Positions 33,901 through 53,932 of a stretch of DNA of 64,000 bases are shown one piece after another; positions within the stretch are counted from its first letter, which is position 1, and each line of letters opens with the position of its first letter. The stretch comes from Eledone cirrhosa (lineage: Eukaryota): assembly GCA_964016885.1 (NCBI GenBank), contig OZ024743.1, forward strand, positions 89,218,001 through 89,282,000. The letters run 5' to 3'. A program made the position numbers and the translations under genes. Under the pieces are notes generated by a model, which searched no databases, was not told the DNA's origin, and saw only the letters and a list, made by a program, of their open reading frames with translations.

Positions 33901-34287
<387 letters not shown>

Positions 34288-37200
34288 TAATTTAATTGTT
34301 CGATTTAACTAGAAGTCAGAAACTAGCAGAAACTTACCTTCGATTTTCTTCTTTAAAATACAGGCAGGACAAAGCAAGCGGGGCTTTCTCATCGAGAAGA
34401 TAACTTCCACAGTCGTCTATACTTTTCTCTGTATACAAAAATGGAAGAACATATTAGTTGTCTTCCAGAGATATGATTGGTCATTAAATTATTCCAGCAA
34501 GTCGACCCCGACGGTATTCGAAATCTGCTTTACTGGCGCAAGTTTATTTTGTTCGACACTCCATCGATTCTACCATCATTATTCCGAATATATCATTGAC
34601 AGAATTGCTAGAACTTTGAACAACATTTCCTGCACTATTTGTTCCGGTTCTATATATTCAGAATTCAAATCCCACCCACACCAACTTTGCCTTTTATCAT
34701 ATCAGGGTTAATAAAATAAAGTACCAATTAGCTCCTGGGGTCGATATAATCGACTGTTAACTCTGCTACACCCCTTCCAATTTCTAGATATTGTACAAAT
34801 AAAAGAAAATCAGTGTTTCTAGTCGTATTAATGACTCTAGCATGATATGTAAAGATGAGTTGTTTAGAAATAAAACTAGCCATGCTTGACGAGTGATTTG
34901 TGGTGTGTACTGAGTGCTGTGTGTTTCCATTGTTCCCAAACAAACCCAATCATGGGACCAGGCTCAGTAAGATAATACCACAGACGTCTACAATACTTCT
35001 CACTTTACTCAGCCCTTCATTTATAAATGGAGTTATCTGTGTTTTTCTATCTATTTTTCAAAGAGAAAACAAGAGAGAGAAATAAAGATGGTTTGTCTTG
35101 ACATTTCAAGTAAGTAGCTACTCGAAATACTTAGAAAACAAAAAAAAAAAGAAAGAAGTTGCTCCATAAATTAAGAGATTTTATTACTTTAATTACCAAG
35201 GGAGATGAATGAGAAAATTAAGTCGTAATTTTCTGATACGCGATATTAAGACGTTCTGATATAGGACACCACCACCATTACTACCACTAGCACCAGCACC
35301 ACCACTAATACCACCACCACCACCATCACCACCACTACTACTAACATGGCTGCCGCCATCGCTAAGAAAGAGCGGGTTTCTAACAAAGAAACAAAGCTCT
35401 ATCGTTGAAATTTTGATATACGAAAACGGCGAGTTAGATATTTCTTTTACTGTTCCACTTCTAGATTGTATTTGCAAAGTGTGTTAGCTGGTCAATATCT
35501 TGGCTTAAAACCTTAGCTTAAAACCTTAGCTTTTCTGGATTGTCACTTTGACATTTACTAACATAGCCAAGTGCAAAAATAATTACCGGCATAAAGGTGA
35601 ATTTATAACCTACGTACAACAGCTGAAGCTTTCGAAATAGTTATATGTAATTATTTTCTTTTTCATTGATTCTGGAAGGAATGTTCACGTTGGTAGGGCA
35701 GCTGACCTCTATGACACTACATAGTTATTTCTTTTCTGTCCTAAATAACCATATCAGGTCAGTTATGTTTGCACTTGGTGGAAGTTTTGATGGGAATGTT
35801 GCACTAATCTTCTCTGTGCTGATATGTATCGACAGTCGATCGACAAGATCCCAGACCTCGTTAAATCGTACCGAGGAAACAATGTTTCCATTGGTCTTTC
35901 CATTTGCTAATGTTATGTGGATTGGCAGTATCGGTAGAGGGTCGGACGCCATGCTTTGCAGTATAGAGTCACGGCCTTTTATGATCTGAGTTCAAATCCC
36001 GCCGACGTTAACTTTGTCTGTCATCCTTACGGGGTCGATAAAATAAAGTACCAGTAATACACTGGGGTATTTGCTGGCCTTGTGCCAAAAGTAGAAACAA
36101 TATTATCTACCGGTCGCAAATCCAGACAGAAGGAGCAATGTGAAATAAAGTGTCTTGTTCAAGGACATAACGCATCGCCCGGTCCGGGAATCGAACTCAC
36201 ACTCTCATGATTGTGAATCCAACAACCACTCAGCCACCCGCCTTCACTTTGATATGTATAAATGTATTCAATTACAGTAAGATTCTCTATATTTATCCCA
36301 GCACAATCTTTCCTCCGGATGGTATTATATAACAACATCATGCCACATTGTACAGTAGTACTTAGATAACTTCTTTGGGAAGCTGCTGAGCACGTGTGTA
36401 GTTTCTTATACAGAAATGTAATATAACCGACATTATCATCAGTTTCATCTTGAGGTTTTAAGGACTTCGCTGATTTTTTTTCTTCATTAGAGATTTCATA
36501 TCTATCTCCTGCTTTTGGTTAGCAAAAGCATTGTCTTCAAAATGTGACGTGCTGCAACGGTCAAGAGTCCAAGAAAAACTACACTTCATGTTAATGTTAG
36601 TATCATCTTCAAGTTTACGGGGGACATATACACACATACCACCACCCTTTTGTCTTTTGAGTTTTATTGAGTCGTTATTTTCCAGATCTTTCTTAAGGCA
36701 TGCTAATTCAGCATTTGTGTATTGGAGATCACCAGGAAGTGAATACTTTAGTGGGTGTTCACTATCGCCCCGTAGGATGGTGTTCTTTTCCCTTTTAAGC
36801 ACTTAATTGATGTATATACTTTCATCAATGTTATTAAGATGATGCTGTCTGAGTGAAATCATACGACATTCAAGGGCTGAATCTTAAGCAATGATCTTAA
36901 GCCTCACCTCTTTTTTCTCAGATAGAGCCTGTTGATATCACTGGTACTGTGGAAGCTTCCAATTGATGTAAAGTTTTAAGGAATGTTAATATTTATTGTG
37001 AGTGAGGGTGGCAACCTGGCAGAATTGGTGGAGCGTCGGATAAAATGCCATTGCTGTATTTGTTCTGACTCTTTGCATTTTATGTTCAAATCCTCCTGAG
37101 GTTAACTTTGCTTCTCATCCTTTCGAGGTCGATAAAATAAAATACCAGTCAAATATTGGGGTCGATATAATTGACTTTCTCCTCGATTCAAATTGTTGGT

Positions 37201-38059
37201 CGTGTGCCTAAATTAGAAATCAATATTTAATGTGCAAATATCGTCTATAGCACTCATGGGCAAACTGCGGCCCGTTTAACTTTCTGAATGGCACGCCTAA
37301 TAACAAAATTACTTTGAATTTCTTTTAGTAGTGCGGTCCACCTTATGATGAGCCACATTCTATGCGACCCATTGCTCGAAAAAGATTTCCTATGCCTGGT
37401 CTGCATACTAGTCAGTATCCTAAATATTAGTATCAGTACTGGTACTTCAAATGCATTGTGGGATATTACAATCATGTTATTATATCTTATCTAATCTGGC
37501 CGTGTTTACACTTGCAAATAAGAAGAACCAGGGCCGCACCTAGGAGCATTGGATTTGGTGTACTTCATATTAGTTTCGGTCCTGAATACAATCAGGGGTC
37601 ACTGCTTCTCCTGAAGGTCAATAGTTCTCTTCTAACTCGATGCATGCATCTGGAACTACTGCCACCCATTGATCTGGGAGAATTGCAACTCATTTCTACA
37701 GCTGAGCAAACTTGAGCAGCGTAAAATAAAGTGTCTTGCTTAAGGACACAACACATCACCCAGTCCGAGAATCGAACTCACAACCTTTCGATTTTAAGCC
37801 CAATGCTTTAACCACTTAAAGGAAAGCTCTAACTGCCATATTTTTTAAAGTCTCGTATATTATACTTTGGTCACTCTATCTTTGTACGTTTTACCTTTGT
37901 ACAATATGTTTTTTTTATCAATGCCTTGTGTATGTGTCTTTGTGTGAGAGTGAGCATGCAATCAATATATATGTATAATACATAAATATTTCCATGGTCA
38001 TACACCAAACAAGATATAATAAAATACTTTCACTCATTGTCTTCGTCTCTATCGCTCTC

Positions 38060-38300
38060 CCCATCTCCTCACTATTATAAGCAAATGGGGACCCACGTGC
38101 TGGCCTCCCCACGGCATCGGTGGACAGAATAGAGAAGGCTTTTCCCCGGAGGATGGTGAAGAAGACGCGTTGGAAGAGCCATTCCAGCTCGCGAGACTCA
38201 CACCTGCAGGTAGCCAACTCTGTACCGATGGTGATCAGTAGGGAGGTGGTTCTAGAACCAAGGACACCAGCAGTCTTCTCTGCTATCTGTAGCATCCATT
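38060..38300 (-). mobile_element. CRE-like retrotransposon fragment
   Basis: GVLGSRTTSLLITIGTELAT..ESRELEWLFQRVFFTILRGKAFSIL. Confidence 0.65.
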
Positions 38301-39263
38301 GGGTGGTATAGGGAAGATAAAGAAATTATTGACGCAAAGATTCTGGGTTTGGAAAAAAGTTTTCTCACGTTCAACTATCAAATACGAACATTTCTTTTGG
38401 CCAAATTCCAACCCTATATCGGCTGAAAATATTTAACTCCATCTGTTTCTCAGCATTATAAACATTTCTGGTGTAGATCTTTGGATCATCCACAAAGATA
38501 TTTTAGGCTGTATTGGCATCTCTTGATTTAGTAGACCCTAGTATATAATCCCAGGGTTTTCATAAAAGAAATGATATAGGATTTAGTGCCAAAATAACTA
38601 GAAGTATAGACAAACTGTCTCCTTGGAACATTCTTTTTAAAATATGATTTTACGTTAACAAAGTTTCTCCCTCAGCGTCTTGAGTCCGTGTCTTAAAGTT
38701 ATTAATCCCACTCACACAAGATTTTGGCGTGTAGAATCTCCGTACATTTTCGTTAAATAAGATGTAGTTTCTGTGCTGTGAAATATATTATTCACCTTAT
38801 ACTTTTAAACTGGCGGTTAAATGACAAGTTGTGTAGTGGAAGTTGTAATTGTTATTCTACTTTTGTTATTCACCTTTGTATGTGTTGAGTTATTTTGTTA
38901 TCGTCTACACTGTATCTCCTAGTTGTTCGTTCAAAGTGATAACAGTTGTGTACAAGCAGCTACTAATTGGACAATAGTGTCATTGTCATTACATATTTTC
39001 ATATATTCAGCAGCTCCAGCGATATCACCCCCCCCCCCCACACACATATGCATATATATATATATATACACATGTATTGACGAGCTTGTAGCATCAACTA
39101 TAATCTCGCTTGCACATATTACTCACTCAATGAACGATGGAATGAACTTGCGAGGAACAAAACCTGTCTCAGAGTGCTTACAATATATATATATGTGTGT
39201 ATATATATGTATATTCCAATTCCACCCCACCCGTCCCTTCAATCTATCTTATTTCTTATTCTT

Positions 39264-39299
39264 TCTTCTGACGAAGGACTAGCGTCCGAAATATTAAGA
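39264..39299 (+). ncRNA. Minimal hammerhead (family C)
   Basis: tctt-CTGACGA-a-ggac-tagc-gtcc-GAAA-ta-TT-aaga. Confidence 0.7.
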
Positions 39300-39383
39300 C
39301 CCTCTTCCTGCTATTTCAAACGTTAACCTAATATATTCCTTCCATATACTGTACCGATTGTGTTGTTATTTTTGTTTACCTTT

Positions 39384-39444
<61 letters not shown>

Positions 39445-39650
39445 TTTAATTTGGTAGTTTACCACTGGGTAGAATTGGTTATTCTGCAATGTTAATCATG
39501 ACGTAATATGAGAAAAGCACTCAACATTATGCAACTCAACCATCTTCGATGTTGAATCATGTTGGTGGTGGGCGAACGGAGTAAATGTATTATAAAGTGA
39601 GATGATAGGAGGTCAAATATGTTGAATTTACTTAATTTTTGATTCCTGCA

Positions 39651-39710
39651 TACACTATGCACATTTCAGTGGCCTGGTTGCATAAGAACCCGGTGGCGTC
39701 ATCAGGTGTA
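39651..39710 (-). ncRNA. Hammerhead, imperfect stem II
   Basis: Minus: tacac-CTGATGA-cgccaccgggttcttatgcaaccaggccact-GAAA-tgtgca-TA-gtgta. Confidence 0.6.
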
Positions 39711-39832
39711 AATTGCGTAATAGGTGTATACCAATGGAATGATGGTAAACTTTAAGGAAACAATCAAAGAAAAGACAGAGAGAAAAAGGTTGTTTTTTGA
39801 CCCAGAGACGGACGAAGTAGCATGCTTCACTT

Positions 39833-40036
<204 letters not shown>

Positions 40037-40240
40037 AAGTATGTATACGTACATACATATATGTATACAGACGTACAGTAGTATGTATATATATATACAT
40101 ACATGCACACATATATATATGTACGTATGAATTCACCGAACATTTATTATAATGCTCGGAGTGTTTGTAAACAAACATCCCGTATTAAGCGGTAGTGTCC
40201 AGCAACCATCGTTGCTCATTTGTTCAACACTGACAAAAGA

Positions 40241-40283
40241 ACGCTGTACTAGTTTCAAGCTTATTAGCTATCGTCAGCAACGT
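40241..40283 (-). ncRNA. Hammerhead (430-bp monomer family), inverted copy
   Basis: Minus: acgttg-CTGACGA-t-agct-aata-agct-t-GAAA-ctag-TA-cagcgt. Confidence 0.85.
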
Positions 40284-40770
40284 ATACCTTCCTGCCAGAT
40301 GATTGAACGTCTGAAAGTATATACTTTCCTTATGCATATTAACGGCTGAGCAGCCTAATTTGCATATCGAGTGAGTTAATCGGCCGGGGTACCGAAAATG
40401 ATAAACGGAAAAAATGAAACGAAATTTCATTTCTCACTCTTAGTACCGAGCATTATAATAAACATACCGAGCATTATAATAAATGTTTGGTGAATCCATA
40501 CGTACATATATATATGTGTGCATGTATGTATATATATATACATACTACTGTACATCTGTATACATATATGTATGTACGTATACATACTTATATTTAAGTA
40601 ACAGCCGTACTAAGAGTGGGAAATGAAATTTCGTTTCATTTTTTCCGTTTATCGTTTTCGGTGCACCCGGCCGATTAACTCACTCGATATGCAAATTAGG
40701 CTGCTCAGCCGTTAATATGCATAAGGAAAGTATATACTTTCAGACGTTCAATCATCTGGCAGGAAGGTAT

Positions 40771-40813
40771 ACGTTGCTGACGATAGCTAATAAGCTTGAA
40801 ACTAGTACAGTGT
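40771..40813 (+). ncRNA. Hammerhead (430-bp monomer family)
   Basis: acgttg-CTGACGA-t-agct-aata-agct-t-GAAA-ctag-TA-cagtgt. Confidence 0.85.
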
Positions 40814-40952
40814 TCCTTTGTCAGGGTTGAACAAATGAGCAACGATGGTTGCTAGACACTGCGGCTTTATACAGGATGTTTGTTTACAAACACACCGAGC
40901 ATTATAATAAATGTTCGGTGAATCCATACGTACATATATATATGTGTGCATG

Positions 40953-40988
<36 letters not shown>

Positions 40989-41090
40989 CTACTGTACGTC
41001 TGTATACATATATGTATGTACGTATACATACTTATATTTAAGTAACAGCCGTACTAAGAGTGAGAAATGAAATTTCGTTTCATTTTTTCC

Positions 41091-41147
<57 letters not shown>

Positions 41148-41234
41148 TAAAACAGAGAACAAAAACAGTAACGAAGAGTGCGGTGCAAAGTGTTAGTATT
41201 AGGTTCACGCTCGAGAATGGGGGGGGGGGGGGCG

Positions 41235-41342
<108 letters not shown>

Positions 41343-41698
41343 CCGTCCCTTGTCTTAGACGGTACATGTTAAAAATGACACATCGCCAGCACAAATGTAA
41401 CGTTAAAAATGAAATTTTGAAAGGCTACTCATAGCTGAAACCGGCCAATACAAGAACAAATTAGACAAACAAGATTATTTCAGAAAACTCAGCTATTTTC
41501 TTTAAAAAAACAATAATATATTTTGTATGAACTAATTTCTTTAAATTGTCTACTGTAAATTTGCATGAATATATAAACATTAGGTGCATCTTCAAATCTT
41601 TATAAATATATAAACATATAAATATATATATATATAGATATGTTGATTTAAAACTGCACTATCCACAAGTGTTTTTTAACCTTCATATCATGTCTTCC

Positions 41699-41769
41699 TA
41701 TTTTATCTGATGAAAACACAAATGTTATTGCATGATGATATTTGTTTTTGAAATGCGCATAATAAAATA
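41699..41769 (+). ncRNA. Hammerhead family A
   Basis: tattttat-CTGATGA-aaacacaaatgttatt gca tgatgatatttgttttt-GAAA-tgcgca-TA-ataaaata. Confidence 0.85.
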
Positions 41770-42266
41770 CATGGAACTCTTTTAACCATCTTTTGATCTT
41801 ATATATATATATATATATTTACGTAACGTACGTGTGTATCAATATATGTATATGTATATGCACGCCCCCTCTCCCCCACCCCCTCTGACCCCTTCCCATC
41901 CACACGCACACACACACTGACTTACACCCCACCCTATGTACACACTGGTTTTTCCTATTACCCGAACATGGAACTTCGTTCTTCCCCAAACTCTCACACT
42001 CACATCCACACATACACACACACACACGTACACCTACACACATCCACACACACCACCTTCGGCCTCTCCGCTCGGATCCGTTGTCTTCCTCTCCCCTCTC
42101 CCCCCATCCACCCACCCCTCACACGCCTCACACCCTTTCACCACTTGTTTCATTTTAATTTTTTTACCCTCTTCTAAATTTTTTCCTTCCCTTTAACCCC
42201 CCCTTTTAATGTCTTTCCACCAGTCCCCCTCACACCCTTGGAACACTTTTCCTTCCAACTTTTCTC

Positions 42267-42294
42267 CTGACGAAGGGCTTATGCCCGAAACGTC
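42267..42294 (+). ncRNA. Degenerate family-C hammerhead core
   Basis: CTGACGA-a-gggc-ttat-gccc-GAAA-cg-TC, but no stem I partner follows. Confidence 0.5.
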
Positions 42295-42405
42295 CCCCGC
42301 CCCCACTCTCAAGCGTGAACCTAATACTAACACTTTGTACTGCACTCTTCGTTATTGTTTTTGTGTTCTGTTTTAACTTAAATATATGTTTATATATATA
42401 TATGT

Positions 42406-42476
<71 letters not shown>

Positions 42477-42596
42477 GAAATCAGTAAAATCGAATCTCTG
42501 GCGGTTTGCAAGTAAATTTGGCCTACTTATATGAAATGATGAGTTAGCAAAGCACTCGATAAGATAGGACCTCAGAGTAATAACATACGTTTAAAT

Positions 42597-42673
<77 letters not shown>

Positions 42674-42810
42674 AGAGTTAAACAAGATTCAATGAATACA
42701 TCAAAGAATGAGTTTTACAATAGCTTGGAAGCACTCTACAGTACATATTTTCCAGAGTTATTAATATTAATTCCAAATATTAACAAAATAGATATTCTTG
42801 TGATCAATTA

Positions 42811-42877
42811 TATTTTATTATACATATTTCAGAGGTACTGAATTAAGTTCAACAGTACGTCCTCATCAGATAAAATA
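42811..42877 (-). ncRNA. Hammerhead related to families A/B
   Basis: Minus: tattttat-CTGATGA-ggacgtactg...cagtacctct-GAAA-tatgta-TA-ataaaata. Its 3' half recurs inverted at 42932-43000. Confidence 0.8.
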
Positions 42878-42991
42878 AAATGATACATGACATAACCTGA
42901 CATGGTAGATGGTTAAGATTTAATCAAGGTAGAAATATGTATAATAAAATATAATTGATCACAAGAATATCTATTTTGTTAATATTTGGAA

Positions 42992-43040
<49 letters not shown>

Positions 43041-43357
43041 TATATATATGTATATATGTATGTATGTACGTATAAATATATACTTATAAATGCATGTACT
43101 TTAAGTTGTATATGAGTGTGAGTGTAAATGTAGTAGGGTGAGGAAGAAGGGGGGGGGGGTGAAGAGGTGGGGTGACATAAGAAAATGTGGCAATAGTTGT
43201 AGGTTAAGTAGACAGTCGGCCTTGAACGAAGAGAATAGTCATATGTGTGACTCTACACACATACCGCACACCGCCCCGCCAAAGTAAACTCACCCACACG
43301 CTGCTCCATCTCACCTAATATGACATGATGTAATGCACCACCAACAACTGCATATAT

Positions 43358-44260
<903 letters not shown>

Positions 44261-44552
44261 ATATGTGTGTGTGTTTATATGAGATTCTATCTACATAGTG
44301 TTTCCCAACACTTGAAATATTTCAGACATCATCTCCTACAGTTTTGAAATCTCGCGTGTACTTACATGAACATCTCGCCCCTTCACACAATTTCCTTCTT
44401 TCATTCTTTCTTTTTCCCACTCTCTTTTCAGTCACTCTCTCCACACACATACACACACTCTCTCTCCACACATGTGTGTCCATATGTCTACATATATTAC
44501 ACTTGACATGTACGCATACATGTGTGTGTTGGCACACAGCCGCCGTACATAT

Positions 44553-44598
<46 letters not shown>

Positions 44599-44674
44599 CG
44601 AAGGAAATGTGGTAAGGAACCAGATGGACCATATCGCACCAAAGTACTCAATACTTAGGGTAGTAGAGTGGGTA

Positions 44675-44797
44675 ATAGGAACAAGTAGGACCCCGACGGC
44701 TGAGCTCAAGCCCTTTCGACGGCTAATTCTGGACTAAATTTAGTCCAGAATTAGCCGTCGAAACGGCTTGAACTCAGCCGTCGGGGTCCTACTTGTT

Positions 44798-44802
<5 letters not shown>
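44675..44802. repeat. Near-perfect palindrome (64-bp arms) of a small repeat also at 43972-44032 and 49571-49705
   Basis: Centre ggactaaa|tttagtcc; two mismatches between the arms. Confidence 0.85.
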
Positions 44803-44862
<60 letters not shown>

Positions 44863-45003
44863 AAGAATTAGAAATAGAAGCCAGGACTATCCGTCATCAG
44901 TAGTCTACCAGCCATCATAGATATTTCTTCGCATTACAGACCATATACCTCCGGCTAGGGCAATACAATAACTAAATTAAGTTATTGGGATAAAAAGAGG
45001 TGG

Positions 45004-46038
45004 GTGGAGAAAGAGTGTGTATATGTATACATAAACACACACACACACACACATATATATAGGAAACCTAATAATAGGAATAGCAACCACAAGTGCACCA
45101 AAGCGGAGGGTGCCACCGGAAGTAACCATTACCATGGAAACTACTGTGGTGCCTTAGGAAGAATCAACACACCAAACACTAAAAACAAAAATAGAAGAAG
45201 AAATAATACATTTTTCAACCCTCCTTTCAACCTAAATGTCTCCACCAACATACCTAGGGCTTTCTTCTCACTACTAGATAAAAACTTCCCTCTAGGACAC
45301 AAGTACCACAACCTTTTAAACAAAAACACTATTAAAATCTCATACTCTACGACGCCTAACTTAGCATACCACATAGCTAGCAGCAATAAAAGTAAAATGA
45401 ATTCTTACTTCCAACAAACAAAATCACAACAGGATGCAAACCTTCTAAATACCTCTGTAGCAAGCAACCATAGTAACGGCAGTAACAATAGAAATAACAC
45501 TAGTATAAGAAATAACACCGGGGTTGACAACCCGAATGTCCAAAATCCTATAGCTACCACCCAGACTTCTGCACTGCATTATAACCAGCAGACTAACACA
45601 CAGGATAATTGTAACTGTAGAGCTAATAGAACCTGCCCTTTAGATAAAAAATGCCTAACCAAGGATATCATATACTCATGCACCGTCACAACTAGCAACT
45701 CTTCAGAAACCTATGTAGGCTCCACTTCTAACTGCTTCAAAATCAGATATAATTCGCACATCCACTCGTTCAAAAAGCACAGCCTAGCCAACTCCACCTC
45801 ACTTTCTAGCTACATACACTATCTAAAAACTAAAAATAAACCATACACACTCAAATGGGAAGTGATAGGCAGCGCGACCTCATACAAACCACCTAATAAA
45901 TTTTGTAACCTCTGTATACTAGAGACCCACAATATTATCTTCTCCAACCGTAACCTACTTAACAAAAAATCTGAGGTGTTTGCAACTTGCCAGCACCGCT
46001 TCAGACATTCCTTCCAAAACTTTAAACCCAATATATAG
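45004..46038 (+). mobile_element. Penelope-like element ORF remnant: linker, Cys motif and GIY-YIG endonuclease (no RT)
   Basis: FFNPPFNLNVSTNI; KNTIKISYS; CNCRANRTCPLDKKC (CxCx5Cx5C); DIIY...YVGST..FKIRYNSH; CNLCILE; LLNKKSE..CQHR. The called start lies in microsatellite, so true homology begins near 45180. Confidence 0.88.
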
Positions 46039-47496
46039 CAATGTCGGACTTGAACCAAACACCACATTTAGCATCAAACACCAGGGGCACACCTTATACC
46101 ACATACCCAACACTAACTGATCTAATATAACACAAACAACGACATCCCTCTGGAACCCTTCGCAGGGAGAATACCCATTTATACCTCTACGTCAGGTGTA
46201 ACAACATCCACCCACTTGAACTGCACTACACCACTCCATAGGTAATTTGAGCATGTATTGATTGGTTTGGTAGTGTTATGCGGAGGAAGTGCCTTCCTTA
46301 GACAGATGAAAAACGATTTAATCTAGTAACGCTGTTGAGCAGTAGGACCAGGACGCTGAGCGCAGAGAATGAATGTAATGCAATTGGCGTGCGGGTTGTA
46401 CATATATGGATGATTTGGCGGTCTGAGAGGGGTCGTGAAGACTGCGAATTGACCTCTGGCCGGACCTGGTGATGATTATCTTTCGACATCCAATGTAGCA
46501 AGCGATGACCCAGAACTTACCAGAGATCATTGTGTCTTGAAGTGATTCTGCAATCACCGCGCCTGGTCCTATGAGTAGACTACAACCACAGAGATCATTA
46601 ATTTAGAATCCTCGCTCATCGTCTATAATATTCATTTGTGGCACCCTACGATGGAGGTTAATTCACCATAATAATACGAACACCTTCAGCACAACTTAAT
46701 TAAACTACTCTATAGCTAAAACACTTTATGCTTTAGAAATATTTTGGAAGTTGCGCATAACCATAGAAATTAGGGCCTATATTGAGACACATTTCAATAG
46801 CTAGGTATATAAACCCCGGAGTTACCTCCCCTCATGCATTAACTCCCCTTAGCCACACACACACTTCCGGGTGGTATTCAATGTCGTTCCTCGAAACGTA
46901 ACAGCCTCCTGTATTGAACTAAAGAACATCAGACTATGATTCTCTAACTGGATTGTCAAACGCTCAATATCGAATTGTCGTGGATTATGCGAGGGGCATA
47001 TAATTGAAAAATACACTCCCCTGACCATGAAAATGTCGAAGTACATGAAGTACTTGTCATCCCTTCGCTGTGCATCTCCAATACTTTTAATATTTTTAAT
47101 ATTTTTAATGCTTGCACTATTTTTAATGCTTATATCATTTCTCCACACACAGACTATATCAATCATATAAAGAATCTGCCACCAGATCAACCAACCTAAC
47201 ACTCTTGTTTACCTACCTAAGTGCCTCTACTACACGTATCTCTCTGCCACACTATATAAACAAGACGCACGTGCTTGCCACACATATAACATTTGCACTA
47301 CATAACCGCTTATCTTCATGTTGTATTTTAACCTGTATTTTTGATTTTTTGATTGTACCTTTTAATATGAATGTAATCTCGAAATGTGTTCTGCCACTCT
47401 AAATTCTGTAATGAATGTTGACCCACAATATTTGCATATGTATCGGTATGTCTCTTGGCTGAAAAGGAGGTCATATAACTGTCCATTCATTAATAA

Positions 47497-47549
47497 ATTG
47501 CTCCGAAGAATCCAAACCTCGGTTTGGAGGAAACAGCTGTAAGCACAAT
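47497..47549 (+). ncRNA. Variant hammerhead (CCGAAGA core), probable pLTR of the upstream Penelope-like element
   Basis: tgct-CCGAAGA-a-tccaaacc-tc-ggtttgga-g-GAAA-cagctg-TA-agca. Confidence 0.65.
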
Positions 47550-47626
47550 AATGTTTTGAACAGTTCTTTGATTCTTATATTTCATATATATGTATATATA
47601 TATATATGTATATATATATATACATA

Positions 47627-47751
<125 letters not shown>

Positions 47752-47759
47752 GTATATAT

Positions 47760-48172
47760 ATAAAATATTAAACAAATAATGAACAAACAATTCCTTATAT
47801 TAAACAAAAAAAGTTCACTATTTAACGATCGTTTCTAGGGTATATATGTGCTATAATTGGTATGCATATTTAACAGATCTATGTACAAAATTATACAAAA
47901 TTATACAAATTATCAAGATTAAATATACATACCTAACTCATATATACGCCGTCTTCAGAAATAATGATTATTTCTGAAGACGGCGTATATATGAGTTAGG
48001 TATGTATATTTAATCTTGATAATTTGTATAATTTTGTATAATTTTGTACATAGATCTGTTAAATATGCATACCAATTATAGCACATATATACCCTAGAAA
48101 CGATCGTTAAATAGTGAACTTTTTTTGTTTAATATAAGGAATTGTTTGTTCATTATTTGTTTAATATTTTAT
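47760..48172. repeat. Perfect inverted repeat, 206-bp arms, 1-nt spacer
   Basis: Centre cagaaataat-g-attatttctg at 47966; arms match out to 47760/48172. Confidence 0.92.
47967..48115 (+). ncRNA. Hammerhead with ~115-nt stem-II domain (mirror copy on minus at 47817-47965)
   Basis: attattt-CTGAAGA-cggcgtatatatg...catatatacccta-GAAA-cgatcg-TT-aaatagt. Confidence 0.72.
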
Positions 48173-48311
48173 CTTGACTCTGTATACCGTTTATCTTTCA
48201 CCGAAATTGGATTTTCATTACATCTCTTCTTTCCATGATATCCGGAATACATTGAGTTCTTCATACGGATTGGACACTACCGTAAACTCTTGGTAGATTT
48301 ATCTACATATG

Positions 48312-48345
<34 letters not shown>

Positions 48346-48511
48346 TATATAAATATATATATATATACACACAAATATATAATACATACACATATATATA
48401 TATATACATATACATACACATACACACACACACAGACACACACATATATATATATATACACATACACACACACAAATATATATATATATATATACATACA
48501 CATACACACAC

Positions 48512-48580
<69 letters not shown>

Positions 48581-48595
48581 TATATACATACACAT

Positions 48596-48662
<67 letters not shown>

Positions 48663-48671
48663 TATACACAT

Positions 48672-48728
<57 letters not shown>

Positions 48729-48739
48729 CACATACACAT

Positions 48740-48773
<34 letters not shown>

Positions 48774-48876
48774 GTATATAATAGTTAAAATGGAAAACAC
48801 AAATAACAAAAACAAAGCGAAGAGGCAGTACAAAGTGTTAATATTAGGTTCACGCTTGAGAGTGGGGGTGGGGAAT

Positions 48877-48904
48877 GACGTTTCGGGCATGAGCCCTTTA
48901 TCAG
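48877..48904 (-). ncRNA. Degenerate family-C hammerhead core
   Basis: Minus: CTGATAA-a-gggc-tcat-gccc-GAAA-cg-TC (core G8>A), inside a repeat shared with 42150-42385 and 41140-41232. Confidence 0.4.
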
Positions 48905-49216
48905 GAGAAAAGTGGGCAGGAAAAGAGTTCCGGGGGGGGGGGGGGAGTGGTGGAAAGACATTAAAGGGAGGGAAAGAAGGGCGGAAAAACATTTTTTAGA
49001 GGGTAAAAAAATTAAAATGAAACAAGTGGTGAAACACAAAAATAAAATAATAAAATAATGAACAAAAAATCGGAGACTGGAAGAGAAAAGATTTTGTGAG
49101 AGAGTTTTGGGAAAAGTTAAGAGGTTGGTCACGGCGAATTGAATCAGGGTTGAGCCGGTGATCGAAATCCTACGGGATAAGCCTGGTGAAGGTGGTACTC
49201 CACGTACACACACACA

Positions 49217-49286
<70 letters not shown>

Positions 49287-49391
49287 TGTATATATATGTA
49301 TATATATATATATATATGTATAAAGGCCGACGATGGTTGCCGAACACTGTACGGCGTAATTCGGCGTAATTATAATAAATGTTCGGTAAAC

Positions 49392-49430
<39 letters not shown>

Positions 49431-49762
49431 CATGTATGTATATATATACATAGTACTGTACGTCTGTACACATATATGTATGTACGTATACATACTTATA
49501 TTTAGGTATCAACCGTACTAAGAGTGAGAAATGAAATTTCGTTTCATTCTTTTCCATTTATATATATACTAGAAATAGCCGTTGAAACGGCTTGGGCTCT
49601 GCCGTCGGGGTCATACTTTTTCCTATTTCCCACTCTACTACCCTAAGTATTGAGTACTCTGGTGCGTTATGGTCCATCTGGTTCCTTACCACAATTCCTT
49701 TGTTATATATATATATATATATATATAATATAAGATCAAAAGATGGTTAAAAGAGTTCCAAG

Positions 49763-49833
49763 TATTTTATTATGCGCATTTCAAAAACAAATATCATCAT
49801 GGGAGGATATCTGCGTCCTCATCAGATAAAATA
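49763..49833 (-). ncRNA. Hammerhead family A
   Basis: Minus: tattttat-CTGATGA-ggacgcagatatcc...gatatttgttttt-GAAA-tgcgca-TA-ataaaata. Confidence 0.85.
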
Positions 49834-49964
49834 GGGATACATGATATGAAGCTTACAAAACACTTGTGAATAGTGAAATTTTAAATCAACATATCTAGGA
49901 AGCTCCAACCGTTAAGGTTGTCTTTTTACCGGGTATGTAAATATTTATTTATAAAACAAATCTG

Positions 49965-50030
49965 TATTTTATCTGATGAAAGCGCACCATAATTTGCCTT
50001 GGTGGCCCTTGAAATATGTATAATAAAATA
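49965..50030 (+). ncRNA. Hammerhead family B
   Basis: tattttat-CTGATGA-aagcgcacca...tggtggccctt-GAAA-tatgta-TA-ataaaata. Confidence 0.82.
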
Positions 50031-50189
50031 AATATGGTTTTATAAATATAGTTTCCATTTATTAATATATTGTGTATTTACTCCACTTAGCTGTTGAGTG
50101 CTTTATATCAGTTATAAACATTTTAAAGCTTGTTGAATCCCAACAAATTAAATATAACCTCTGCATATATATATATATATATATATATA

Positions 50190-52049
50190 TTTATTATAAA
50201 CATACAGAATATTTTCGAATATTCTATGTCTATATTCACATATATATCGCTATTTCAGAGCATTTATTCCAATTTCTAATTTCTGCCGGACCGGCAACCG
50301 CTCTTTCAAACCAGTTCCTGTACACAGCTAAGTATTCTATAAGTCTCTAGCTGTGTCATTCTCGATAAAAGCACTGGATATGTAGTCCTGATGATTTCTA
50401 ACAAGAATGAAACGCGTAGATTACTTCCCTTGCTTTTATCGAGAATCTAATTGTAATACGTGACGTATTCTATTCTATAGCGATTAGGTCTTCAAAATGT
50501 TTATTATAAACATACAGAATATTTTCGAATATTCTATGTCTATATTCACATATATATCGCTATTTCAGAGCATTTATTCCAATTTCTAATTTCTGCCGGA
50601 CCGGCAACCGCTCTTTCAAACCAGTTCCTGTACACAGCTAAGTATTCTATAAGTCTCTAGCTGTGTCATTCTCGATAAAAGCACTGGATATGTAGTCCTG
50701 ATGATTTCTAACAAGAATGAAACGCGTAGATTACTTCCCTTGCTTTTATCGAGAATCTAATTGTAATACGTGACGTATTCTATTCTATAGCGATTAGGTC
50801 TTCAAAATGTTTATTATAAACATACAGAATATTTTCGAATATTCTATGTCTATATTCACATATATATCGCTATTTCAGAGCATTTATTCCAATTTCTAAT
50901 TTCTGCCGGACCGGCAACCGCTCTTTCAAACCAGTTCCTGTACACAGCTAAGTATTCTATAAGTCTCTAGCTGTGTCATTCTCGATAAAAGCACTGGATA
51001 TGTAGTCCTGATGATTTCTAACAAGAATGAAACGCGTAGATTACTTCCCTTGCTTTTATCGAGAATCTAATTGTAATACGTGACGTATTCTATTCTATAG
51101 CGATTAGGTCTTCAAAATGTTTATTATAAACATACAGAATATTTTCGAATATTCTATGTCTATATTCACATATATATCGCTATTTCAGAGCATTTATTCC
51201 AATTTCTAATTTCTGCCGGACCGGCAACCGCTCTTTCAAACCAGTTCCTGTACACAGCTAAGTATTCTATAAGTCTCTAGCTGTGTCATTCTCGATAAAA
51301 GCACTGGATATGTAGTCCTGATGATTTCTAACAAGAATGAAACGCGTAGATTACTTCCCTTGCTTTTATCGAGAATCTAATTGTAATACGTGACGTATTC
51401 TATTCTATAGCGATTAGGTCTTCAAAATGTTTATTATAAACATACAGAATATTTTCGAATATTCTATGTCTATATTCACATATATATCGCTATTTCAGAG
51501 CATTTATTCCAATTTCTAATTTCTGCCGGACCGGCAACCGCTCTTTCAAACCAGTTCCTGTACACAGCTAAGTATTCTATAAGTCTCTAGCTGTGTCATT
51601 CTCGATAAAAGCACTGGATATGTAGTCCTGATGATTTCTAACAAGAATGAAACGCGTAGATTACTTCCCTTGCTTTTATCGAGAATCTAATTGTAATACG
51701 TGACGTATTCTATTCTATAGCGATTAGGTCTTCAAAATGTTTATTATAAACATACAGAATATTTTCGAATATTCTATGTCTATATTCACATATATATCGC
51801 TATTTCAGAGCATTTATTCCAATTTCTAATTTCTGCCGGACCGGCAACCGCTCTTTCAAACCAGTTCCTGTACACAGCTAAGTATTCTATAAGTCTCTAG
51901 CTGTGTCATTCTCGATAAAAGCACTGGATATGTAGTCCTGATGATTTCTAACAAGAATGAAACGCGTAGATTACTTCCCTTGCTTTTATCGAGAATCTAA
52001 TTGTAATACGTGACGTATTCTATTCTATAGCGATTAGGTCTTCAAAATG
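50190..52049 (+). mobile_element. Six-copy 310-bp tandem array, one hammerhead ribozyme per unit (non-LTR retrozyme-like)
   Basis: ttattataaacatacag recurs at 50191, 50501, 50811, 51121, 51431 and 51741. Copies appear identical by eye. Flanked by (TA)n. No ORF. Confidence 0.9.
50358..50446 (+). ncRNA. Type-I hammerhead ribozyme, array unit 1 (repeated every 310 nt, five more times)
   Basis: gtagtc-CTGATGA-t-ttct-aaca-agaa-t-GAAA-cgcg-TA-gattac. Stem I is extended by a perfect 16-bp helix attctcgataaaagca/tgcttttatcgagaat beyond an internal loop. Predicted cut after GUA at 50418. Confidence 0.9.
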
Positions 52050-52164
52050 GTTATATATATATATATATATACAATGTTAAGGTATTAAAACATATTTGAA
52101 ATGTATAATAGTCGTGTTTCTCAAACAATATATGACCCTATCTCTCTAAATATATCTTTTGAAT

Positions 52165-52233
<69 letters not shown>

Positions 52234-52882
52234 ACAAAATAATCCCAATGTATTGAATCTAACGGCGCAATTTTACGACCAGAACACAGTTTAGAGGTAT
52301 TCAAATTTATTATTTGTAATTCTGGCATAAGGTTAGCAAATTTGGGAGTTATACATAATTGTTTAAATCAACACCAGCATTTGAAGGGAACTTTATTTTA
52401 TCGACCTTTGAAGGACGAAAGGTTAAGTAGATCTTGGTGGGATTTGAACTTAGAATGTAAAGAGCCAGAATAGATAACGCAATAGTATTTTATTCGACGT
52501 TCCCCCAATTCTGCCAATCCAACAGTCTCATTAAATATTATTATTAATTTCTAACAAGATCTTTTGGAGAAAGGGGGGAAAGTTGATTATATCAACCTCA
52601 GTACTTAACTGGTACTTTATTTTATCGACCTTGGAAGGATAAAAGACAACGTTAACCTCGGTGGGATTTGAACTCAGAAGATAGAAAGTCGTAACTATTT
52701 ACTGCAAAGCACTTTGTCCGTCGCTCTACCGATTCTGCCAATCAACTGCGCTTCAGAATTAATATTGGAATGAAGATGACGAAAGAAAGCGAAATAGATA
52801 ATTAGATAAAAAGAAAGATAGAGAGAGCGACAGAGAGGGGAGAAAAAAGAAAGGGGAGATAGATAGATAGATAGAGAGAGTG

Positions 52883-52947
<65 letters not shown>

Positions 52948-53044
52948 GGGTTATAGAGATAGATAGATAGAGATACATAAACAAAGATAGAGAGAGAGGA
53001 GAAACAGAGATAGTAAATAGATAGAGATAAATAGACAGAAAGAA

Positions 53045-53087
<43 letters not shown>

Positions 53088-53334
53088 AATGAAAATATAG
53101 AAATTATTGTGAGCAAGAAGCCAACAGTATTTCATAATATATAAGTGACTATAACGTCAACATGGAAAATAATTAACGTAAGATGTGGGAAAATAATTCA
53201 AACTCAATTTAAAAAAATCAAGACAGAGATTTTATCCACAGATTTTGTGAAATCCAGGGAAAAACCAATAGAGCCTTAACTCTGATTAAAATAAAGTTTA
53301 AATACTCATCCTTCAATTTGAAAAAAATACAAAT

Positions 53335-53415
53335 GCTCTATATAGTCTTAAGAAGATTATTTCACGAAACTTTTCTGTGGGGATGGTCACGGTTGTAATC
53401 GTTCATCAGTAGAGC
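53335..53415 (-). ncRNA. Solitary hammerhead candidate with a full hairpin stem III
   Basis: Minus: gctcta-CTGATGA-acga...tcgt-GAAA-taatctt-ctt-aagacta-TA-tagagc. Confidence 0.6.
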
Positions 53416-53704
53416 TCAAACACGATAACCCTAGTGCCACTGCCAAAATATGCCAAAATATGCCAAAAAGGGAATTTAAAAGCAGGCTAGTTCACCTCGT
53501 GCGTAATTATGAAAATAAACACACATGGAGAGACATGGCTGGTGACGTCAGAATGAGACGAATGTCTATTTACAAGAAACAGCAGTAAAAAACATTCCGA
53601 AAAAAACTCTACAAAATGTAGAGTTTATATATAGAAGTGCATCACCCCCCCCCCCCCATAAAAAAATCAACCAATTAATAAAAAAAAATAAAAATAAACA
53701 ATAA

Positions 53705-53932
<228 letters not shown>

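What the first reader, a model, noticed from the sequence alone, without database searches (positions are those of the whole stretch)
50190..52049. Retrozyme-like 6 x 310-bp hammerhead array, sense-oriented inside a beta-tubulin intron
Seen: six apparently identical non-coding 310-bp units inserted in (TA)n. Each has a complete type-I HHR (gtagtc CTGATGA..GAAA cgcg TA gattac plus a 16-bp outer helix). Further helices occur in each unit (acacagcta/tagctgtgt, tgccgg/ccggca, atcgctat/atagcgat). Established: non-LTR retrozymes of invertebrates are small tandem HHR repeats processed to monomeric and circular RNAs; short palindromic stem III HHRs typically work as dimers. Inference: tubulin pre-mRNA passing through would be cut at 50418, 50728, 51038, 51348, 51658 and 51968, releasing five 310-nt monomers able to circularise. 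The array edges are permuted relative to the cut site, as expected for rolling reverse transcription of a circle. This could be an undescribed cephalopod viroid-like circRNA family.
Basis: partly seen in the sequence, partly recalled or inferred. Interest (0 to 1): 0.92.

Follow-up and report, generated by a model that had tools for sequence, protein, structure and literature searches.

The report
Self-cutting RNA repeat hijacking Penelope transposons
This is one copy of a very young, roughly 17,000-unit family of small ribozyme-bearing repeats whose other insertions carry the footprints of Penelope-type transposons and share mutations across every repeat, which likely means each was copied round and round from a single small RNA circle; its place in a tubulin intron is probably incidental.

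Summary
Confirmed: six identical 310-bp units (50190-52049), each with a type I hammerhead, sense in a 19.5-kb beta-tubulin intron. It is a non-LTR retrozyme-type repeat: 16,909 hammerhead copies genome-wide, at least 1,200 insertions in (TA)n. New here: most insertions examined (87 of 104) are two head-to-head arrays whose outer 3' ends always pair one short end (130/139 nt after the cut) with one end about 35 nt longer (85 of 85), the inverted-copy-plus-tail signature of Penelope-like elements. Variants private to an insertion sit in every unit and both arms (36 of 38 concordant; 16% by chance). They are mostly A>G in long helices; two sites recur on several lineages at about 5% (808 and 786 units; control T>C site 3). 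Best reading: a Penelope RT/endonuclease primes twice on one ADAR-edited, probably circular monomer and rolls. Not shown: cleavage, expression, circularity, the helper element. The tubulin setting looks incidental.

The parts
50190..52049 (+). Array of six identical 310-bp retrozyme units; single arm; starts at phase 82 and ends at phase 81 (phase 1 = base after the cut). Same haplotype as 17 of 84 insertions examined, counting itself.
50382..50424 (+). Type I hammerhead of unit 1 (repeats every 310 bp): stem I 50382-50387/50419-50424, core 50388-50394, stem II 50395-50408 with U.U base, GAAA 50409-50412, palindromic stem III 50412-50417, predicted cut after 50418
   Evidence: cleavage not tested
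50358..50446 (+). 16-bp outer helix extending stem I (50358-50373 with 50431-50446). With stem I it holds the recurrent A>G sites of other insertions (phase 276 = 50384, phase 20 = 50438, phases 259/260).
50419..50728 (+). Predicted 310-nt cut-to-cut monomer (five such in the array); predicted circular RNA
   Evidence: fold; existence as RNA not tested
50477..50590 (+). Domain shared with sister families (phases about 59-172). Holds a covarying hairpin and the two family-wide 3' end sites (phase 130/139 = 50548/50557; phase 165-167 = 50583-50585). Inferred binding and reverse-transcription start region for the helper protein.
50165..50189 (.). (TA)n target, left flank
52050..52072 (.). GT plus (TA)n target, right flank
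34041..34281 (+). Beta-tubulin exon upstream of the host intron
53733..53918 (+). Beta-tubulin exon downstream of the host intron
44959..46035 (+). 5'-truncated Penelope-like element (GIY-YIG end) in the same intron; member of a young family with intact 832-aa ORFs elsewhere; no sequence link to the unit, so not shown to be the helper

Best explanation
The array is one insertion of a young non-coding hammerhead repeat family that a Penelope-like retrotransposon protein likely copies into (TA)n sites by rolling reverse transcription of a single, probably circular, 310-nt RNA. Shown by sequence: anatomy, copy number, (TA)n targeting, head-to-head arms, fixed and asymmetric 3' ends, private variants shared by all units and both arms, recurrent A>G in helices. 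Inferred steps: read-through transcripts self-cleave after GUA, likely as paired hammerheads via ACGCGU; monomers are ligated, as RtcB does in vitro for axolotl and mussel retrozymes; ADAR edits about 5% of molecules at each hot spot; a dimeric RT/GIY-YIG protein nicks both target strands and starts two cDNAs about 35 nt apart on the same RNA; each rolls for 0.1-45 turns; the two cDNA ends are joined head to head, often through a few bases of microhomology. The window's own array is an atypical one-arm copy, and the tubulin gene is a bystander host.
For: 16,909 cores; 1,206 tailed and 1,243 short (AT)n junctions. In the first 218 Mb of C1, all 63 outward-facing end pairs are tailed+short, none like-with-like; 85 of 85 complete two-arm insertions likewise. 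This matches the inverted copy, the one-ended 30-40-bp tail and the (TA)n bias of Penelope-like elements (PMC8557442, passages) and the two internal RT starts of a predicted dimer (PMC11167929, parts 1-2). Arms share haplotype in 36 of 38 against 16% by chance, 9 with a haplotype seen once. Insertion-wide extra variants: A>G 22 against T>C 4 (at least 16 against 4 events, p = 0.0016), opposite to single-unit variants (9 against 19; Fisher p = 0.0014). A>G at 30 paired A-U sites 20 times; C>T at 21 paired C-G sites 0 times. A276G: 808 units, the first 100 in 13 insertions spread 4/3/3/3 over four lineages whose markers lie 8-19 nt away. A20G: 786 units. Unpaired control T230C: 3, background 4. 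No pile-up of 5' ends at the cut site: 5 of 197 within phases 303-11. Lineage variants spare the catalytic core and keep the stems; sister families covary in 20 of 64 pairs.
Against: No cleavage, expression or circle was observed. Eight of nine Xenopus retrozyme dimers did not cleave in vitro (10.64898/2026.07.22.740005), and stem II here is weak. The anole Penelope inserts without needing its hammerhead and uses uncut RNA in vitro (PMC11167929). No autonomous element sharing the unit's 3'-end domain was found in the loci held. By distinct sites the A>G excess is not significant (9 against 4, p = 0.07), and only one control site was counted. Two of 38 insertions have discordant arms, one from different lineages (L150), one mosaic for A276G (L067). 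Loci were mostly chosen by their canonical ends and all lie on C1. The window's own ends (82/81) do not fit the two start sites.
Confidence: 0.72

Rival explanations
1. Penelope-type mobilisation, but from uncut linear multimer transcripts of homogeneous source arrays; the hammerhead is a passenger and no circle is needed.
For: Anole Penelope uses unprocessed RNA and internal starts (PMC11167929). Arms could simply copy long arrays. L067 is mosaic for A276G.
Against: Per-molecule edits on a multimer should be mosaic, yet A276G and A20G run through whole insertions and both arms on several lineages. Core and stems are conserved across lineages and sister families.
Confidence: 0.14
2. The template is a single cut linear monomer whose ends are held together by stem I, re-read by repeated end-to-end template jumps.
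For: Explains all-unit sharing equally well. Two lineages carry an extra base at phase 2, next to the junction.
Against: No run-off pile-up of 5' ends at the cut. Single-unit errors are not concentrated at the junction.
Confidence: 0.08
3. Short Penelope-type insertions expanded afterwards at the DNA level (slippage, unequal exchange), which homogenised each array; A>G reflects selection for G.U wobble, not editing.
For: Local amplification is proposed in 10.64898/2026.07.22.740005. Long arms (L035/36, L060/61) show repeated variant blocks, so some later expansion occurs. The window's exact 6.00 units could arise this way.
Against: Both inverted arms carry the same private variants. Wobble-neutral C>T is absent where A>G is common. 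Hot spots are about 200-fold over the single-unit background.
Confidence: 0.05
4. Assembly artefact or a host-co-opted regulator of the tubulin gene.
For: Exact integer copy number and off-phase ends; no laid contig bridges this junction. Sense position in an intact-looking gene.
Against: Thousands of arrays with distinct junctions and lengths. Near-zero divergence means recent arrival. The same gene holds many other hammerhead remnants in both orientations.
Confidence: 0.01

Closest known systems
Non-LTR retrozymes of animals (coral, mussel, axolotl; Cervera and de la Pena 2020, PMC7229834)
   Same: Dispersed tandem 150-450-bp low-GC units, one type I hammerhead each, no ORF. Axolotl Amex1 has a palindromic minimal stem III and Amex2 a U.U at the base of stem II; both cleave better as dimers.
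   Different: This ribozyme combines both weak features. Head-to-head arms, fixed asymmetric ends, (TA)n targeting and inherited A>G hot spots were not in the parts I read (parts 2-4 of 6; word search found 0 'inverted', 0 'microsatellite', 0 'octopus'); the supplement was not seen. RNA evidence exists there, none here.
Penelope-like elements: insertion architecture (Craig et al. 2021, PMC8557442) and internal initiation (Frangieh et al. 2024, PMC11167929)
   Same: Inverted 5'-truncated copy, 30-40-bp tail at one end, (TA)n/AT-rich target, two start sites downstream of a hammerhead.
   Different: No ORF; both arms are multimers of one small unit; the tail rule is absolute in this sample (85 of 85), where the paper says 'often'.
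Xenopus retrozymes related to Penelope pseudo-LTRs (Li, Clavereau, Pollet 2026, 10.64898/2026.07.22.740005)
   Same: Proposes retrozymes are non-autonomous Penelope derivatives.
   Different: Its evidence is co-occurrence and pLTR similarity; here it is insertion-site mechanics, and no related pLTR was found. Main text has no 'tail' and no molluscs.
Hammerhead viroids and viroid-like RNAs
   Same: Small, highly paired, predicted circular RNA with a hammerhead.
   Different: Genome-encoded with a DNA stage; ribozyme in one polarity only; no sign of RNA-to-RNA replication.

Membership tests
Non-LTR retrozyme | Tandem units of about 150-450 bp, GC under 50% | tested here: met
   310 bp, 34% GC
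Non-LTR retrozyme | Complete type I hammerhead in every unit | tested here: met
   6 of 6 by anatomy; below Rfam cut-off; structure-neutral variation
Non-LTR retrozyme | No coding capacity, no linked ORF | tested here: met
   Longest stop-free stretch within the array about 60 codons; no ORF between arms apart from one 272-bp spacer. PBS/PPT not searched.
Non-LTR retrozyme | Dispersed, many loci, target duplication over 4 bp when present | tested here: met
   At least 1,200 insertions; duplication-like matches of 11-34 bp in 11 of 85, most within imperfect microsatellite and so uncertain
Non-LTR retrozyme | Self-cleavage in vitro | not testable with these tools
   Energy only: intermolecular stem III -7.5, hairpin form +6.0 kcal/mol
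Non-LTR retrozyme | Expressed as monomeric linear and circular RNA | not testable with these tools
   Only contigs of unrecorded kind were available
Penelope-mobilised element | Inverted 5'-truncated copy at the 5' end | tested here: met
   87 of 104 insertions; absent in the window's own copy
Penelope-mobilised element | 30-40-bp tail at one end only | tested here: met
   63 of 63 and 85 of 85; not met by the window's copy
Penelope-mobilised element | (TA)n target bias | tested here: met
   70 of 85 have at least four AT units on both flanks; the sample was largely chosen on AT junctions, but the 10 loci chosen by the core alone also show AT-rich flanks
Penelope-mobilised element | 3' end shared with an autonomous partner's pseudo-LTR | tested here: inconclusive
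   None found in the fetched loci; one Penelope family examined at full length
Autonomous Penelope-like element | RT plus GIY-YIG ORF | tested here: not met
   Unit is non-coding
Viroid-like replicon | RNA-to-RNA replication, ribozymes in both polarities | tested here: not met
   Hammerhead scan finds + polarity only; other ribozyme classes gave no Rfam hit; replication itself not testable

The most novel reading that the evidence does not exclude
The genome holds a fossil record of a circular RNA's life: each insertion is a twin-primed rolling copy of one ADAR-edited RNA circle, made by a Penelope dimer whose two active sites start 35 nt apart. This would be genomic proof of the circle-template model for animal retrozymes, an explanation of the Penelope inverted-copy-plus-tail structure, and a route by which A-to-I edits become heritable DNA. 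Rare one-arm arrays such as this intronic one, free of a fold-back antisense arm, would be the source loci that feed the circle pool.
Probability: 0.45. Interest if true: 0.85.

Novelty: new variant of a known kind. Interest (0 to 1): 0.66.

Why it matters
Two open questions meet here: whether animal retrozyme circles really are the templates for new genomic arrays (proposed in PMC7229834, untested there), and how Penelope elements make their inverted, one-tailed insertions (called undefined in PMC8557442). A young family with over a thousand near-identical insertions, natural edit marks and a mapped pair of start sites makes both testable. It also shows a 310-nt non-coding RNA building about 5 Mb (0.17%) of a genome. 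The class itself is known, and the tubulin link adds little.

Tried and rejected
DNA search of the own genome with the unit returned nothing, not even the window; uninformative, replaced by patterns. Rfam gathering scan: no hits. Sequencing-run search: no RNA holder listed; says nothing about expression. Laid contigs: X1, X3 and X6, under three other organism codes, each hold one 340-nt contig (310+30, a closed loop) identical to the unit at depth 10-15 with no flank. A tandem repeat in trace DNA gives the same picture as a circle and the run kind is unknown, so it is not used as evidence. X2 shows A295G and AT loose ends at phases 139 and 170 but may be the assembly's own sample. No contig bridges the right junction, so an empty allele could not be tested. 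Helper search: the co-resident 832-aa Penelope family shows no similarity to the unit beyond AT runs and no hammerhead by my scan; eight larger sister-family loci and a profile scan of all held loci gave no ORF-linked copy. Pfam gave no RT hit for that ORF and only a weak GIY-YIG hit for the window fragment; its Penelope label rests on motifs I recognise and on PMC8557442's description. Literature on intronic ribozymes and splicing: the one paper opened (PMC3365414) had nothing usable, so the effect on tubulin is left open. Earlier scan findings: none. Edge permutation as proof of a circle: rejected. Not-in-print claims rest on searches of an open-access library only.

Full report
Observation. 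The six units are identical and the repeat spans exactly 50190-52049 between (TA)n runs. Each unit has a complete type I hammerhead with the cut predicted after 50418+310n. Stem I and a 16-bp outer helix are stable; stem II is weak (U.U then 4 bp) and stem III is the palindrome ACGCGU, worth -7.5 kcal/mol between two ribozymes and +6.0 as a hairpin. Rfam sees only a sub-threshold HH9 match. The circular monomer folds better than shuffles (z = -4.5). The array lies sense in a GT-AG intron (34282-53732) of a beta-tubulin gene with five open exons seen. Below, phase 1 is the base after the cut (window 50419).

A large young family. The exact 33-nt core occurs 4,578 times and a four-position degenerate form 16,909 times, about 5.2 Mb; reversed controls are 0. 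Single-unit differences within insertions are 119 in 150,632 bases. Older sister families (motif count 6,339; units 313-332 bp) share phases about 59-235 but have different hammerheads, several with a U3-A8 core and a GUC cut. An alignment of nine units shows compensatory change in 20 of 64 predicted pairs; these sequences are related, so this is not a probability. Within the family, lineage variants fall on N7, loop II, position 10.1 or keep stem I paired.

Insertion anatomy. The first ten loci, chosen by the core alone, were mostly two arrays head to head with 3' ends pointing out into AT-rich flanks; all 8 complete two-arm cases paired a short with a long end. Exact junction patterns gave 1,206 ends at phase 165/167 and 1,243 at phase 130/139. 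Using the 89 of 100 listed long ends that fall in the range covered by the 100 listed short ends, 63 outward pairs were found, all mixed. Over 104 insertions fetched (mostly chosen by such ends, all on C1 except the window), 87 were two-arm, 14 one-arm by script (one cut by an N gap, a few with tiny second arms) and 3 complex; 191 of 197 3' ends fell in the two clusters, 5' ends were spread, arms were 0.1-45 units (median 3.3), and 42 of 87 inner joints overlapped by 1-5 bases. All 85 complete two-arm insertions were short+long; 11 had duplication-like flanks of 11-34 bp, only L034's outside microsatellite. Scaling suggests roughly 1,700 insertions (inferred). This is the Penelope pattern: inverted truncated copy, one-ended 30-40-bp tail, (TA)n bias (PMC8557442, passages), and two internal RT starts with both strands nicked and extended by a predicted dimer (PMC11167929, parts 1-2 of 4).

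One template molecule per insertion. Among 84 insertions with two or more full units (715 units) there are 36 haplotypes. The two arms agree in 36 of 38 insertions with at least two units per arm, against 16% by chance; 9 share a haplotype seen only once. After setting aside 12 lineage markers, insertion-wide variants are A>G 22 times against T>C 4, the reverse of single-unit variants (9 against 19). By distinct sites it is 9 against 4, not significant. Seven of nine A>G sites are strongly paired (p = 0.005), and wobble-neutral C>T at paired C-G sites is never seen (0 at 21 sites against 20 at 30 A-U sites). Genome-wide, A276G (UAG context in stem I) is in 808 units; the first 100 lie in 13 insertions spread over four lineages whose markers are 8-19 nt away, so recurrence rather than recombination (counted from the listing). 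A20G is in 786 units. One control, T230C in an unpaired CTA, is in 3 single units, equal to background. UAG in duplex RNA as the preferred ADAR site, and heavy editing in cephalopods, are recalled, not from a call. Edits made molecule by molecule but present in every unit of both arms imply a single monomer read many times. The lack of 5' ends piling at the cut (5 of 197 in 19 positions) favours a closed circle over a cut linear monomer. Exceptions: L150 has arms from two lineages, L067 is mosaic, and long arms show later duplication.

The window's copy. It has one arm, begins at phase 82 and ends at phase 81, the only such case among the 14 one-arm insertions. 3' ends near phase 81-90 occur at 4 places in the genome, two of them copies of one insertion. 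Both edges fall on the AT-rich patch TTTATTATA, so priming and joining, or later trimming, at the same microhomology could give exactly six units; this is unexplained. The gene's introns carry 11 other hammerhead-like motifs of other repeat families in both orientations, so the tubulin setting looks incidental. A one-arm sense array cannot fold back on an antisense arm and is therefore a plausible source of circles; untested.

Helper. A young Penelope-like family with intact 832-aa ORFs exists, with a fragment in this same intron, but it shares no sequence with the unit, and no ORF-linked copy of the shared domain was found in the loci held. The first look found 63,623 endonuclease-like candidates, so the helper may be another family. 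Best named relatives are from Argonauta hians, in line with a cephalopod host but weak.

Comparison and novelty. By every feature testable here it is a non-LTR retrozyme (PMC7229834, parts 2-4 of 6); cleavage and circular RNA are untested, and 8 of 9 Xenopus dimers failed to cleave (10.64898/2026.07.22.740005, parts 1-3 of 5). Those papers propose circle-templated reverse transcription and a Penelope helper; one mentions RNA editing as a possible source of RNA heterogeneity. I found no report of cephalopod retrozymes, two-arm tailed retrozyme insertions or inherited edits (searches; other papers seen as listings only). Supplements were not read and subscription journals are not covered, so this may be incomplete.

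Verdict. Real; a new variant of a known kind; interest 0.66. The value lies in the family's mechanistic record, not in the tubulin location. Confidence in the full model 0.72; in Penelope-type mobilisation alone above 0.9.

Noticed in passing
window 27051, 27285, 39705, 40277, 40777, 41707, 42869, 49825, 49973, 61096, 61231: Eleven further type I hammerhead-like motifs of several other repeat families, often as inverted pairs inside (TA)n; the genome appears very rich in them.
   Followed up: partly
window 44861-47584; full copies such as L132:3795-6290: Very young Penelope-like family (97-100% identical endonuclease ends, several intact 832-aa ORFs) with no hammerhead found by my scan.
   Followed up: partly
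L081:3956-4276, L080:2439-2770, L197, L200, L203, L209: Sister retrozyme families with a U3-A8 hammerhead core and longer stem III, sharing the 3'-end domain and the same two-arm layout.
   Followed up: partly
window 44600-44800 and 49560-49700: Short inverted-repeat element in (TA)n with a near-perfect central palindrome; also seen in L081 and L181. Probably another non-autonomous family.
   Followed up: no
L150 (G000:C1:136719097-136726313): Two arms of one insertion come from different lineages, so two RNA molecules can sometimes serve one event.
   Followed up: partly
L037:3599-3870: 272 bp of unrelated sequence captured between the two arms.
   Followed up: no
runs X1, X3, X6 laid on window 51730-52170: Three runs under different organism codes each hold only a closed 310-nt loop identical to the unit at depth 10-15; trace DNA or a free circle cannot be told apart.
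   Followed up: partly
G000:C4 about 89204600-89296200: The host beta-tubulin is a long-intron paralogue spanning more than 91 kb.
   Followed up: partly
L216, L217 (G000:C4:196461458-196471441): The same two-arm insertion with a phase-82 end appears twice, inverted, 7 kb apart: a local inverted duplication.
   Followed up: no
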